Source: the human T2T-CHM13v2.0 reference genome, Homo sapiens. From it: a stretch of 64,000 bases of DNA. Of the stretch, positions 5,709-51,050 are shown in pieces (the stretch's first letter is position 1; every line of letters starts with the position of its first letter). The stretch lies in the NCBI RefSeq assembly GCF_009914755.1, contig NC_060930.1, one strand, 5' to 3'. The notes under the pieces were generated by a model. That model was not told where the DNA came from and ran no database searches. It worked only from the letters and a program-made list of their open reading frames with translations. The position numbers were made by a program, and so were the translations under genes.

Positions 5709-5929
5709 ACTGAAAAAGAAAAAACAAGCCAAACAAAATGCAGAGACAGCCTCAGCTGTAGCTACAAGGACTCATACTGGGAAGGAAGATAATAATACAG
5801 TAGTTTTAGAGCCAGACAAGTGCAACATTGCTGTGGAAGAGGAATATATGACTGATGAGAAAAAAAAGAGAAAAAGTAATCAGTTAAAGGAGATCAGGCG
5901 TACAGAACTAAAGAGATATTATAGTATTG
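5709..5929 (+). CDS. NCOA7: NCOA7 internal coding exon (LKKKKQAKQN...ELKRYYSI)
   Basis: Polypyrimidine tract + TAG acceptor; G|GTGAGT donor; 221 nt, phase 2 to 1. Translation matches the recalled NCOA7 N-terminus. Confidence 0.96.
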
Positions 5930-6100
5930 GTGAGTATTCATGGCGTTACTGCAGTATTTTCATTTAAAAAATCTATAAGAATTTTTAAAAGACTATCATT
6001 TGTGATTGATCATAATAATGGTAACAGTTTATGGAGCAGCTGCTATGTGCCCCTGGCCCTTGCTTTACATACATAATCTTGTGTAAGGGGATCACACTAA

Positions 6101-6608
<508 letters not shown>

Positions 6609-6830: not shown

Positions 6831-7600
<770 letters not shown>

Positions 7601-7931
7601 CAGTATTCCAAGATAAAATGGACTGCCCTTGAGGTAGTAATAAAAGCTGCATTGCTGATGTTGCTACCGTACAGGCAGATGATCTATCGGCAGCCGAAAG
7701 CATGTGGTTTGTAGCTTTACAGTGGGCTAAGATGATAGTATAATGTATTACATGTCTTAATGGATGTTTTTAATCTCAAGCTATTCAGTATTTTATAAAA
7801 AGCTATAACTGTCAACCTGTTGAAAGATACTTCTGTACTATTAATAAACTTCCTTTTAAAATGTAAATATTAAATATTATCCCTTATTTCCAAAAAGAGG
7901 AAGAGGATTAAGGAAAATTGCATTTCATATC

Positions 7932-41330: not shown

Positions 41331-41499
41331 ATATACTTCCTTCAAAAGAAGAAAAAAGCAAGACCCCACCCATGTTCCTGTGCATCAAAGTGGGAAAACC
41401 AATGAGAAAATCCTTTGCCACTCACACTGCAGCCATGGTCCAGCAGTACGGCAAACGGAGAAAGCAGCCAGAGTACTGGTTTGCTGTTCCTCGGGAGAG
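41331..41499 (+). CDS. NCOA7: NCOA7 exon (DILPSKEEK...QPEYWFAVPRER)
   Basis: TTCAG acceptor; GAG|GTGAGT donor; 169 nt, phase 1 to 2; PEYWFAVP is an OXR1-family motif. The next exon was not found in the window. Confidence 0.96.
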
Positions 41500-48704: not shown

Positions 48705-50509
48705 TAAGACCATGTAGTAACATTTTGGCCACAAAAGCTATATTTTATTGTTAGGAGTGACTAGTTGATGACCGATCATAGTCAGGATTTTTCAACTCTC
48801 TTTCTATCTTCTTTTTCTTTTTCTAAACTATTCACTCTTGGTTCTGGAACATTTAGAGCAAAGCCTGAAAGTCATGAGTACTGAGCTTTTCATGATGTGC
48901 CATCCATCTGAAATCTTACTCATTTTTAAAACTATGGGTGCTAAGCTTCATTGGACCCTGATGTCATTCAGGTGCCTGAATTGCAACATTATAAAAGCAT
49001 CAGATTATTCTGGTTGAGCACATATTTTTACAAAGATCATCCCATGTTATCTTCATCATCCCAAGGAGAATTTCTACTCTTAAAAACTCAAAGAGGAATA
49101 TCAAAGAAATTAACCCACTACCTCAGCTATCAGTTTGCCCAGAGCTAAATCAGAGAGCATTAAGAGAGCAGATTGGGCAACAAATTGATGCCCTTCTTGA
49201 CTTTGTGCTACTCTGATTGTGAATGTAGTACTTGAAAATAACAATTTCCTATTCTTTAGTTCCTCTTCTTAAAACCTATTTTGTACCATATGTCTATGAT
49301 AATCTTCTAAAAAAAAACTATTCTGATCTTGTTTCATTCCCACAAAAATATCTTAAGCCTTCAGGACTCATGTCTAAACCCCTTCTGTATTTTTAAAAAC
49401 CCTTCATAAAAGTGCTAGGATTACAGGTATGAGCCATTGTGCCCAGCCTATAATACATATTCCTAAACATTAGTTGGATGGGTTCATGAATAAATGAGCT
49501 TATAATCTAATAAATAAAAAATGTATTTGTTATTTCTTATAATTAAAATTATACAGACTAATATTTAGAAAATACAGAAAAGCAAAAAGAAGAAAATTGA
49601 AATCTCATAGTTTTGTTACAGAGAACTAACTACAATTCATTTTATCTGTATAGCCTTTTAGCCTTTCTTTCAATGCATGGATTAATGTAATAATACTATA
49701 TAGATCATACATATATAGTATATGTAAATTGCTTTTCCTTAAAAATGTGTATTTTTCTGCCATTAGATATTCTATTCACATGCATTTAGTGAGCATGAAT
49801 TATTTTATAATGAGAATCATAAAAAATAAAATTGATTCCCTATTAAACTTGTTTTACAATGGAAAGATGTTCAAATCCTAAGGACCTTCATGAAGACAGC
49901 AAAATGCTCTTAACAGCACCTTTTCTTAGAAATAAGGGATGAATTAAAGGAATTACAAACTGACCTAGTTTTCTAGCATGAAATCTTTAACCATAGTTAA
50001 TGTGGAATTTTCTGATCAAAAGTCACCTTGCTTCTACTGGGATCACAGCTAACCTGGAATCTTTAATGCCTCCTGGTGCCAAGAAGACCATAATCTTGAA
50101 CATTTTTTAGTACTGTACTTGCTGGAACAACTGAGGTCCTACTCAGCCATACCAGGTATATATCAGAATACAAACCCTGTGATTCGTAAGTACCACTTAC
50201 CAATGTGTTATACTGTAATTTTATGATGATTCTTTAAGTTGAAAGTCACTAGTAAAGAAAAAACCCAAACAAGATCTCCAAAACATCCCTGAAAGAATTG
50301 TCTTCTTGTCTTCCTATTTAGTATGAATTTTGGAAAACCCCTAAACAAATATGTAATTATTGATTATTTTATGTTTTAAAGTGACACTGCTTGCTCTCCC
50401 TTCCTGATTATTTTACCTTTTTTTCATCAACTGAAAATTCCAGAAATTCATTACCCTCCAAAAACACCCTCTTAGGCAACCACCCCCCAGTAACTTCAGT
50501 AACCAGCTT

Positions 50510-50537
50510 TGGCAAATACCTTGAGTTAATCATTCAC
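50510..50537 (+). promoter_or_regulatory. HNF1-type site GTTAATCATTCAC with adjacent forkhead-like GCAAATAC
   Basis: One mismatch to GTTAATNATTAAC at 50525-50537, about 150 nt upstream of the candidate ATG. Confidence 0.45.
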
Positions 50538-50684
50538 TCTACAGTCAGACGTAAGCTCATGAAAAAATAATCTTCTTTGTAAGTGAGCTCTTCACAGTGC
50601 TTTCTGGTGGCGGAGCAAGCTTGGAGACAAGTAGCTTTGGAGAATAGCTGAGGGTCCATTTCCACTGCAGACTAATCCCTGCCA

Positions 50685-50710
50685 ATGGGTGCTGCACACA
50701 GTGTTTGGGA
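50685..50710 (+). CDS. NCOA7: Candidate coding part of an alternative internal first exon (MGAAHSVW + GA)
   Basis: ATG GGT GCT GCA CAC AGT GTT TGG GA followed by GTAAGT. Ends in phase 2, like the exon ending at 41499. Confidence 0.5.
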
Positions 50711-50726
50711 GTAAGTATGCAGAAAC

Positions 50727-51050
50727 AGTAATGATTGCAAACCTAAATGCCTGCAGGGGCTGTGGAATGGGGGTAAAGGAAGCATGAGGCCAGGGTTAAT
50801 TATAGAGCTCCTTCTCTACCAGTAGGGGCTGTGGACCTCTGTAGCTAGGTGGGAATGGGAACACAGGCCTGGGGTGTTGCTACATCTTCTCATCTTTTTC
50901 AAAAAGGAAGCCGAAATATCGATTAAATATATTAAATCTCCCCAGTTGTTAAGTATTGTCCACTGTTTAATTTTAAAGATAGTGAGCAGAGCAAAGAAAA
51001 CATATTTACTTCTGAATCCACGCTATGGGCTGCCAGCCTGAGGCCTCTGG
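50727..51050 (+). mobile_element. MER102-like hAT-Charlie DNA transposon remnant
   Basis: GCAAACCTAAATGCCTGCAGGGGC...GTGTTGCTACATCTTC...GGGCTGCCAGCCTGAGGCCTCTG resembles the recalled MER102 consensus. Confidence 0.6.

What the first reader, a model, noticed from the sequence alone, without database searches (positions are those of the whole stretch)
50500..50716. Candidate internal first exon giving an N-myristoylated, TLDc-only NCOA7 isoform
Seen: ATG GGT GCT GCA CAC AGT GTT TGG GA followed by a perfect GTAAGT donor (50685-50716). It ends in phase 2, the same phase as the exon ending at 41499, so it would splice in frame onto the next NCOA7 exon. From the recalled canonical protein this gives MGAAHSVWE-VDHLYTFF..., about 250 aa. 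Upstream lie a near-consensus HNF1 site (50525-50537) and a forkhead-like site. Known: M-G-x-x-x-S is the NMT consensus; TLDc proteins bind and regulate the V-ATPase; NCOA7 and OXR1 use internal promoters for short isoforms; the TLDc protein MEAK7 is membrane-anchored by myristoylation. Inference: a tissue-restricted (kidney/gut/liver) lipid-anchored V-ATPase regulator, distinct from the interferon-induced short isoform. The exon may already be annotated as a minor transcript.
Basis: partly seen in the sequence, partly recalled or inferred. Interest (0 to 1): 0.8.

Follow-up and report, generated by a model that had tools for sequence, protein, structure and literature searches.

The report
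Ancient lipid-anchor start exon in NCOA7
A tiny start exon hidden in an intron of human NCOA7 is real and as old as jawed vertebrates, and it would make a short, probably lipid-anchored form of this proton-pump regulator that the NCOA7 papers read here do not mention.

Summary
ATG 50685 opens 26 coding bases that end in phase 2 at 50710, followed by GTAAGT. The canonical exon ending at 41499 has the same phase. Joined to the next NCOA7 exon (window-equivalent 66023), it gives an open 252-aa frame.

Sequence alone is weak evidence: 6-8% of 300 composition-matched random windows show the same configuration.

Homology decides it:
- A protein named after an orangutan cDNA clone (Q5R8N5_PONAB) starts with the same nine residues, followed by the VDHLY exon.
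- 63 further database proteins, all named ones teleost, start MG-x-x-Y-S-[VI]-x-[ED], and a sawfish NCOA7-like isoform carries MGLGYSVRE at the same junction.
- A tree places all of them inside NCOA7, not OXR1.

The exon is therefore a real, ancient alternative start. It is distinct from the interferon-induced exon at 70047-70121. It is absent from the 18 RefSeq transcripts in the hub table, and the NCOA7/TLDc papers I read do not mention it.

Myristoylation is inferred from the motif only. The HNF1 and tissue-restriction idea and human expression are untested.

The parts
50685..50710 (+). Coding part of the alternative first coding exon: ATG plus 23 bases, leader MGAAHSVW plus two bases (GA) of codon 9, ending in phase 2
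   Evidence: Sequence read. Frame and 252-aa join. The same nine-residue leader starts the orangutan cDNA-named protein P0121. Homologous leaders occur in 63 other database proteins and in a sawfish isoform.
50711..50716 (+). Splice donor GTAAGT (context GGA|GTAAGT)
   Evidence: It matches 6 of 9 positions of CAG|GTAAGT, within the range of 5-8 found for the 14 real NCOA7 donors examined.
50673..50675 (+). In-frame TAA 12 bases upstream of the ATG, so translation in this frame must begin at 50685
50668..50670 (+). Possible CAG acceptor that would make a 40-nt cassette (50671-50710) in the long transcript
   Evidence: including the cassette shifts the frame and stops 49 codons after the junction; pyrimidine content is 12 of 20, lower than all 13 real acceptors examined (13-20).
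50525..50537 (+). HNF1-like site GTTAATCATTCAC (12 of 13), 148 bases upstream of the ATG; possible promoter element, function untested
   Evidence: the only match in the window, with 0.18 expected and 18 of 100 shuffles giving at least one.
50559..50570 (+). Only upstream ATG within 300 bases, a three-codon mini-ORF (ATG AAA AAA TAA); relevant only if the transcript starts upstream of it
41331..41499 (+). Canonical NCOA7 exon that the new exon replaces as partner of the VDHLY exon; same end phase

Best explanation
Bases 50685-50710 are the coding part of a real, ancient alternative first coding exon of NCOA7. A transcript that starts in the 24.5-kb intron after the exon ending at 41499 splices from 50710 to the VDHLY exon at window-equivalent 66023. 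It encodes a 252-aa protein made of three parts: a nine-residue leader (MGAAHSVWE), the 49-aa VDHLY exon with a linker, and the TLDc domain.

Shown here: the exon's anatomy, an orangutan cDNA-named protein with this start, conservation of the leader in cartilaginous and ray-finned fishes, and membership of all these proteins in the NCOA7 clade.

Inferred: after the initiator Met is removed, Gly2 is N-myristoylated by NMT. The lipid, perhaps helped by the aromatic-rich segment that follows (W8, Y14, F16, F17, W20), holds the TLDc domain at membranes that carry the V-ATPase. NCOA7's TLDc domain is known to bind that pump, and the arrangement would resemble the myristoylated TLDc proteins mEAK-7 and yeast Rtc5.

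In teleosts the same architecture has become a separate gene beside the long-form gene. The promoter and tissue of expression in humans are unknown, and the nearby HNF1-like site is only a lead.
For: 1. Anatomy. The ATG, the open frame, the phase-2 end, the GTAAGT donor, the matching phase of the canonical exon and the 252-aa frame to the normal stop are all present.

2. Transcript-derived protein. P0121 is named 'Uncharacterized protein DKFZp469H086', Pongo abelii, Q5R8N5_PONAB. It starts with the identical nine residues followed by VDHLY and then runs through the TLDc domain.

3. Conservation. Among the 263 proteins fetched, 198 are at least 200 aa long and contain the VDH exon. Of these, 65 have a leader of 12 aa or less, and 64 of the 65 read MG-[VAI]-[ATV]-[YH]-S-[VI]-x-[ED]. 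MGVAYSVGE accounts for 54. The one exception is a camel ab initio model starting MFFR. Sawfish P0129 (a cluster of 31 members) carries MGLGYSVRE at the same junction. Where I compared lengths, the coding leader is the same, nine residues, in human, orangutan, sawfish and 63 of the 64 MG proteins. All 72 motif-bearing proteins satisfy the PROSITE-type myristoylation pattern, although the regex used there fixed M1, G2, S6 and V/I7.

4. Tree of the last 215 aa of 32 proteins. All NCOA7-type rows separate from OXR1 (support 100). The sawfish MG form pairs with a long shark NCOA7-like protein (100). The orangutan form sits with mammalian NCOA7. Teleost MG proteins and teleost long NCOA7 proteins from the same species (Scophthalmus, Nothobranchius) fall in different subclades of one teleost clade (99), so they are duplicate genes.

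5. Domain and partner. Pfam TLDc matches at E 1.3e-48 over residues 89-252. PDB chains named NCOA7B, NCOA7-AS and NCOA7 match residues 58-252 or less. Passages in PMC8608904 and PMC8038996 state that NCOA7 binds the V-ATPase.

6. Precedent. Passages in PMC11066047 state that mEAK-7 and Rtc5 are N-myristoylated TLDc proteins.

7. Structure model. In the AlphaFold model of P0121, residues 1-15 have pLDDT below 50 while the TLDc core is mostly above 90. That fits a free N-terminus but proves nothing.
Against: None of the 18 RefSeq NCOA7 transcripts in the hub's table uses the exon.

A search with residues 1-40 of P0121 among proteins of 191-611 aa returned 42 proteins. Only three of them align over the whole 40-residue query: P0121 itself (a cluster of just 3 members), sawfish P0129 and an eel protein. 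No bird, reptile, amphibian or other mammal model with this start appeared. The interferon-type 219-aa cluster, by contrast, has 245 members. Expression in tetrapods may therefore be low or narrow, or the exon may be little used.

Sequence alone is not compelling, with 6-8% of random windows showing the configuration.

There is no biochemical evidence for myristoylation. The six supplementary files of the HeLa myristoylome paper PMC4200515 contain no NCOA7. The leader has no nearby basic cluster or cysteine as a second membrane signal (sequence).

The Kozak context is only moderate: C at -3, G at +4.

I saw no human transcript, CAGE or junction data.
Confidence: 0.7

Rival explanations
1. The exon is real and conserved, but the leader is not a lipid anchor. 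Its conservation would serve another purpose, such as efficient initiation, a contact surface, or an N-terminal glycine signal for turnover. The isoform would then be a soluble short NCOA7.
For: Myristoylation rests on motif and conservation only. There is no second membrane signal in the leader. NCOA7 is absent from the supplements of one human myristoylome study. Residues other than Gly2 and Ser6 (Tyr/His5, Val7, Glu9) are also conserved, which NMT recognition alone does not obviously require.
Against: Met-Gly with Ser6, a small residue at position 3 and no Pro at position 7 is kept in all 64 short-leader MG proteins and in the sawfish isoform. Two other TLDc proteins are stated to be myristoylated (PMC11066047 passages).
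Confidence: 0.15
2. The exon is an ancient one that is now little used or not used in humans. The sequence would persist, but the isoform would have no appreciable role in people.
For: It is absent from the 18 RefSeq transcripts (hub table). Only one tetrapod entry carries this start in the database search. The NCOA7 papers I read name only full-length and NCOA7-B/AS forms.
Against: An unused 26-base coding stretch would not be expected to keep its ATG, open frame, phase, donor and 6 of 9 residues shared with teleosts. An orangutan cDNA-named protein shows correct splicing in a great ape. The human copy is intact, with a closing stop just upstream.
Confidence: 0.1
3. The segment acts mainly as a 40-nt frameshifting cassette (50671-50710) that, when included in the long transcript, introduces a premature stop and lowers NCOA7 output.
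For: A CAG acceptor sits at 50668-50670. Inclusion shifts the frame and stops 49 codons after the junction.
Against: The acceptor's pyrimidine tract (12 of 20) is weaker than all 13 real acceptors examined. The peptide-level conservation of the leader from the ATG onward is what a coding start exon predicts, not a poison exon. The orangutan protein starts at this ATG.
Confidence: 0.04
4. A chance ATG, open frame and donor with no biological role.
For: 6-8% of composition-matched random windows show such a configuration. An unrelated chance hit was found in 100 kb of OXR1, and it gives a TAG when joined.
Against: The same leader occurs in an orangutan cDNA-named protein and homologous leaders in 63 other proteins and a sawfish isoform, at the same exon junction.
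Confidence: 0.01

Closest known systems
NCOA7-B / NCOA7-AS (interferon-inducible 219-aa short isoform, NP_001186551)
   Same: It also comes from an internal start exon in the same large intron region, has the same downstream TLDc exons, and is a known V-ATPase partner.
   Different: Its start exon is at window-equivalent 70047-70121, downstream of the VDHLY exon, and encodes a 25-aa leader beginning MRGQRL with no Gly2. It skips the 49-aa VDHLY exon that the new isoform keeps.
mEAK-7 / TLDC1 and yeast Rtc5 (N-myristoylated TLDc proteins)
   Same: They combine an N-terminal Met-Gly myristoylation signal with a C-terminal TLDc domain that binds the V-ATPase (passages of PMC11066047 and PMC5614904; PDB chains 7u8o_U and others match the TLDc part).
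   Different: They are separate genes of about 456-567 aa with an EF-hand-like N-terminal domain and are only distantly related in TLDc (E 1e-17 to 1e-19). Here the signal sits on a nine-residue leader of an NCOA7 isoform. Myristoylation of the NCOA7 form is not shown.
Teleost 250-286-aa 'nuclear receptor coactivator 7 isoform X1' / 'TLD domain-containing protein 2' gene models starting MGVAYSVGE
   Same: They have the same architecture: a nine-residue MG leader, the VDHLY exon and TLDc. They lie inside the NCOA7 clade.
   Different: They are encoded by a gene separate from the long-form NCOA7 of the same species and are about 55-63% identical to the mammalian protein. They are gene predictions, and I found no paper on them.
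Pongo abelii protein Q5R8N5 (cDNA clone DKFZp469H086)
   Same: It has the identical nine-residue leader and the same exon chain as the human prediction through residue 251.
   Different: It is 349 aa long. After ...EVWAF it continues into sequence that matches the human 3' UTR region in another frame, either a splice within the last exon or a clone artefact. It has one substitution in the VDHLY exon (A for T).
OXR1 short isoforms (OXR1-C)
   Same: OXR1 is the paralogous gene and also has short TLDc isoforms from internal start exons (PMC5614904 passages).
   Different: The homologous OXR1 intron (about 3 kb) contains no ATGGG-initiated candidate at all, so no MG leader was seen there.

Membership tests
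Alternative first coding exon of NCOA7 | ATG, open frame and donor whose phase fits the next constitutive exon, giving an open frame to the normal stop | tested here: met
   the exon ends in phase 2 like the exon at 41499, and the joined frame is 252 aa.
Alternative first coding exon of NCOA7 | Transcript evidence for the splice | tested here: inconclusive
   Met for orangutan, through a protein that its source names after a cDNA clone (P0121). No human transcript data could be consulted, and the exon is absent from the 18 RefSeq transcripts in the hub table.
Alternative first coding exon of NCOA7 | Conservation of the encoded leader at the same exon junction in orthologues | tested here: met
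   sawfish, 63 other MG proteins (all named ones teleost) and orangutan. No other tetrapod model was found.
N-myristoylated proteins (NMT substrates) | Met1-Gly2 with a permissive residue 3, Ser/Thr/Ala/Gly/Cys/Asn at 6 and no Pro at 7 (PROSITE-type pattern, recalled) | tested here: met
   MGAAHSV fits. All 72 motif-bearing homologues fit, with the caveat that the regex fixed M1, G2, S6 and V/I7.
N-myristoylated proteins (NMT substrates) | Gly2 and residue 6 conserved among homologues | tested here: met
   an unconstrained count: 64 of 65 short-leader proteins start MG and have Ser6.
N-myristoylated proteins (NMT substrates) | Covalent myristate on Gly2 | not testable with these tools
   No NCOA7 in the supplements of PMC4200515. 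The zebrafish myristoylome supplements could not be read.
TLDc domain proteins that bind the V-ATPase | Pfam PF07534 above its cut-off | tested here: met
   P0121 scores 165.6 bits against a cut-off of 24.5, over residues 89-252. The human downstream exons encode the same residues.
TLDc domain proteins that bind the V-ATPase | Physical binding of this isoform to the pump | not tested
   Binding is known for other NCOA7 forms (passages; PDB chain names). No solved chain covers residues 1-57 of this isoform.
HNF1-driven tissue-specific promoter | HNF1 palindrome near the start site, beyond chance | tested here: inconclusive
   one 12/13 site 148 bases upstream of the ATG, but 18 of 100 shuffles give such a site somewhere in the window. 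The transcription start is unknown.
HNF1-driven tissue-specific promoter | HNF1A/B occupancy and kidney, gut or liver expression | not testable with these tools
   The listing of 15 of the 22 papers that hold both NCOA7 and HNF1 showed none on this link by title or abstract.

The most novel reading that the evidence does not exclude
The MG-leader form is the ancestral short NCOA7 of jawed vertebrates: a myristoyl-anchored regulator that holds a TLDc domain at V-ATPase-bearing membranes. Humans keep it as an overlooked isoform, while teleosts have turned it into a stand-alone gene. It could be a tissue-specific pump regulator, for example in kidney or other acid-secreting epithelia. Knockouts and antibodies aimed at the long form or at NCOA7-B would have missed or confounded it.
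Probability: 0.45. Interest if true: 0.75.

Novelty: new variant of a known kind. Interest (0 to 1): 0.66.

Why it matters
NCOA7 is studied as a V-ATPase regulator in kidney acid secretion, neurons, antiviral defence and vascular disease. The papers I read describe only the full-length forms and one short, interferon-induced form.

A third form with a conserved lipid-anchor signal would have several consequences:
- It would add a membrane-targeting route to this family, next to mEAK-7 and Rtc5.
- It would change how isoform-specific knockouts are read.
- It would give a simple test: G2A mutation, alkyne-myristate labelling and localisation.

It also shows that the teleost 'NCOA7 isoform X1' and 'TLDC2-like' short genes descend from an internal start exon of NCOA7.

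Tried and rejected
1. Chance. Counts and Markov simulations show that sequence alone cannot settle the question.

2. Forkhead-like site. The 7-mer occurs 165 times in the window, so I dropped it.

3. Repeat origin. Bases 50500-50800 match only themselves in the genome at the tool's sensitivity.

4. Paralogue. The homologous OXR1 intron has no ATGGG candidate. One motif hit 16 kb upstream in OXR1 gives TAG on joining and lies before the preceding exon, so it is a chance hit.

5. Other tetrapods. A search with residues 1-40 of P0121 found no further tetrapod model. Clustering at 90% identity and the length window limit this negative.

6. Literature.
- 21 papers hold both 'NCOA7' and 'myristoyl'. 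18 were listed, and I read passages of two TLDc papers. Neither links myristoylation to NCOA7.
- 'GAAHSVW' occurs in no paper.
- 'ncoa7a' occurs in no paper. 'ncoa7b' occurs in 15 papers; 13 were listed and I saw the listing only.
- For NCOA7 with 'alternative promoter', the one paper I opened concerns the 5' promoters.
- 'DKFZp469' gave one unrelated paper, so the clone's tissue is unverified. My recollection that this library is kidney is only recalled.

7. Myristoylome data. The supplements of PMC4510570, PMC4471546 and PMC10994533 could not be read. PMC4200515 has no NCOA7 in its six files.

8. Structure. The AlphaFold model has low confidence for residues 1-80, so nothing can be said about how the leader sits.

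9. Closed or missing sources. PMC4350146 is not held.
Full report
**What is in the sequence.** At 50685-50710 the + strand reads ATG GGT GCT GCA CAC AGT GTT TGG GA, followed at once by GTAAGT. That is 26 coding bases, so the exon ends with two bases of a codon. The eight listed NCOA7 coding exons of the window read open in only one frame, and the exon ending at 41499 also ends with two bases of a codon, AG|GTGAGT. The window's genome is held, so I fetched the 19.5 kb beyond the window and located the remaining NCOA7 exons by translation. The next exon begins at window-equivalent 66023 with G|GTG GAT CAT, the VDHLY... exon. The interferon-type start exon (leader beginning MRGQRL) lies further on, at 70047-70121.

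Joined in a script, 50685-50710 plus the six downstream exons give one open frame of 252 aa ending at the normal stop. The interferon-type exon gives 219 aa. An in-frame TAA at 50673 closes the frame just upstream. If instead the 40 bases 50671-50710 were used as a cassette in the long transcript, the frame shifts and stops 49 codons after the junction.

**Is this more than chance?** On sequence alone, only mildly. The + strand of the window has 20 open ATG-to-GTAAGT configurations within 300 nt, 10 of them in phase 2. Only this one also has the Met-Gly myristoylation pattern, and the - strand has none. In 300 first-order Markov windows of the same composition, 6.3% (GTAAGT) or 8.3% (GTRAGT) had at least one such configuration.

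The donor matches 6 of 9 consensus positions, inside the range of 5-8 for 14 real NCOA7 donors. The possible acceptor at 50671 has a weaker pyrimidine tract (12 of 20) than all 13 real acceptors (13-20), which fits a first exon better than a cassette. The HNF1-like site at 50525-50537 (12 of 13) is the only one in the window, but 18 of 100 shuffles give such a site somewhere. The forkhead-like 7-mer occurs 165 times and says nothing. The 301 bases around the exon match only themselves in the genome.

**The decisive evidence is homology.** I searched the protein database with the 49-aa VDHLY exon among longer proteins. I then searched with a 268-aa whale NCOA7 model among proteins of 147-469 aa; 338 hits had E at or below 1e-40, and the best 120 were listed. 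Among the hits is P0121, which its source names 'Uncharacterized protein DKFZp469H086' of Pongo abelii (Q5R8N5_PONAB). It begins with the identical nine residues, followed by VDHLY and the whole exon chain through the TLDc domain.

Many database proteins of about 250-340 aa, all named ones teleost and called 'nuclear receptor coactivator 7 isoform X1' or 'TLD domain-containing protein 2', begin MGVAYSVGE followed by the same exon. A sawfish 'NCOA7-like isoform X7' (a cluster of 31 members) carries MGLGYSVRE at the same junction, behind a 27-aa non-conserved extension of the model.

An unconstrained count gives the same picture. Of 198 fetched proteins of at least 200 aa that contain the exon, 65 have a leader of 12 aa or less. 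Of those 65, 64 read MG-[VAI]-[ATV]-[YH]-S-[VI]-x-[ED]. The one exception is a camel ab initio model. Human shares 6 of 9 residues with the commonest teleost leader, and the coding length of nine residues is the same. A neutral 26-base stretch would not be expected to keep its ATG, frame, phase, donor and most residues across that distance. This last step is inference.

**Orthology.** I built a maximum-likelihood tree of the last 215 residues of 32 proteins, using the quick method with SH-aLRT support.
- All NCOA7-type rows separate from OXR1 (support 100).
- The sawfish MG form pairs with a long shark NCOA7-like protein (100).
- The orangutan form sits with mammalian NCOA7.
- The teleost MG proteins (83) and teleost long NCOA7 proteins (98) lie in different subclades of one teleost clade (99), including pairs from the same species.

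So teleosts carry the MG form as a separate duplicate gene. One Xenopus row sits on a very long branch (2.56), and its place is unreliable. The MG leader was therefore most likely present in the NCOA7 gene of the ancestor of jawed vertebrates. The homologous intron of the paralogue OXR1 (about 3 kb) has no ATGGG-initiated candidate. A motif hit elsewhere in 100 kb of OXR1 gives TAG on joining and is a chance match.

**What argues for caution.**
- None of the 18 RefSeq transcripts in the hub's table uses the exon.
- A search with residues 1-40 of P0121 among proteins of 191-611 aa returned 42 proteins. Only three of them align over the whole 40-residue query: P0121 itself (a cluster of 3), the sawfish cluster and an eel protein. 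No other mammal, bird, reptile or amphibian model appeared. The interferon-type 219-aa cluster has 245 members.
- Clustering at 90% identity and the length window weaken this negative. Even so, the form is at best rarely modelled in tetrapods, which points to low or narrow expression.
- I had no access to human transcript, CAGE or junction data, or to other tetrapod genomes.

**Mechanism.** Shown here: the isoform keeps the 49-aa VDHLY exon, a linker and a full TLDc domain (Pfam PF07534, E 1.3e-48, residues 89-252 of P0121). PDB chains named NCOA7B, NCOA7-AS and NCOA7 match residues 58-252 or less, and none covers residues 1-57. Passages in PMC8038996 and PMC8608904 state that NCOA7 binds the V-ATPase.

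Inferred: the leader fits the N-myristoyltransferase pattern, which I recalled from PROSITE, and Gly2 and Ser6 are kept in every homologue. I therefore think the protein is N-myristoylated and that the lipid brings the TLDc domain to pump-bearing membranes. Passages in PMC11066047 and PMC5614904 state that the TLDc proteins mEAK-7, EAK-7 and yeast Rtc5 are N-myristoylated. The leader has no basic cluster or cysteine. A second signal would have to come from the aromatic-rich segment that follows, or from binding to the pump itself. The AlphaFold model gives pLDDT below 50 for residues 1-15 and mostly above 90 for the TLDc core. That is compatible with a free N-terminus but not informative beyond that.

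**Promoter and tissue.** The region is not CpG-rich, with 9 CpG in 1.5 kb, and has no TATAWA box in 50400-50684. The HNF1-like site 148 bases upstream of the ATG is a reasonable lead, but I could not test it. I recall that the DKFZp469 orangutan library was made from kidney, which would fit. I could not verify this, because the search for the clone prefix found one unrelated paper.

**Is it known?** Every NCOA7/TLDc paper I read describes only full-length forms and one short form, NCOA7-B/AS: PMC5614904, PMC8038996, PMC8608904, PMC11066047 and bioRxiv 10.1101/2024.02.26.582142 (passages). A 2026 review, PMC13570293, has no occurrence of 'myristoyl'. No held paper contains the peptide word GAAHSVW. 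The isoform does exist in public databases, as an uncharacterised orangutan entry and as fish gene predictions, and it may be present in human annotation sets that I could not see. I file it as a new variant of a known kind: a third class of NCOA7 product, with a lipid-anchor-type start.

**Verdict.** Myristoylation is probable but untested. Regulation by HNF1 and use of the exon in humans remain open.

Noticed in passing
L002:6047-6121 (window-equivalent 70047-70121): The interferon-type start exon of NCOA7 (leader beginning MRGQRL, 25 aa, donor AAG|GTATGT) lies outside the window. It is downstream of the VDHLY exon, so the two short isoforms differ by that 49-aa exon.
   Followed up: yes
P0121 residues 252-349; L003 about 5787-6122 and 7499-7630: After ...EVWAF, the orangutan cDNA-named protein continues for 97 residues. 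These match translations of the human 3' UTR region. The cause is either a splice inside the last exon that removes the stop or a clone artefact.
   Followed up: partly
Proteins P0001-P0022, P0036, P0081: Many 88-182-aa database 'proteins' from metagenome-type sources are read-through translations of the vertebrate VDHLY exon with its flanking intron. They look like vertebrate DNA in those data sets called as open reading frames.
   Followed up: no
Proteins P0172, P0187, P0213, P0219, P0232: Some teleost MG-leader proteins are named 'TLD domain-containing protein 2' by their source, yet representative teleost MG proteins group with NCOA7 in the tree (these five rows were not in it). Several models also add non-conserved residues upstream of the MG start.
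   Followed up: partly
window 50551-50556 and 50579-50584: Two more donor-like sites (GTAAGC, GTAAGT) lie 100-135 bases upstream of the ATG, inside what would be the 5' leader if transcription starts near the HNF1-like site. I did not establish whether they are used.
   Followed up: no
G000:C8:107825337-107825362 (L015): A 26-base ATG-to-GTAAGC stretch in OXR1 (leader MGMGKGMY) mimics the NCOA7 configuration. It would give TAG when joined to the OXR1 DHLY exon and lies upstream of the preceding exon. It serves as an example of the chance background.
   Followed up: yes
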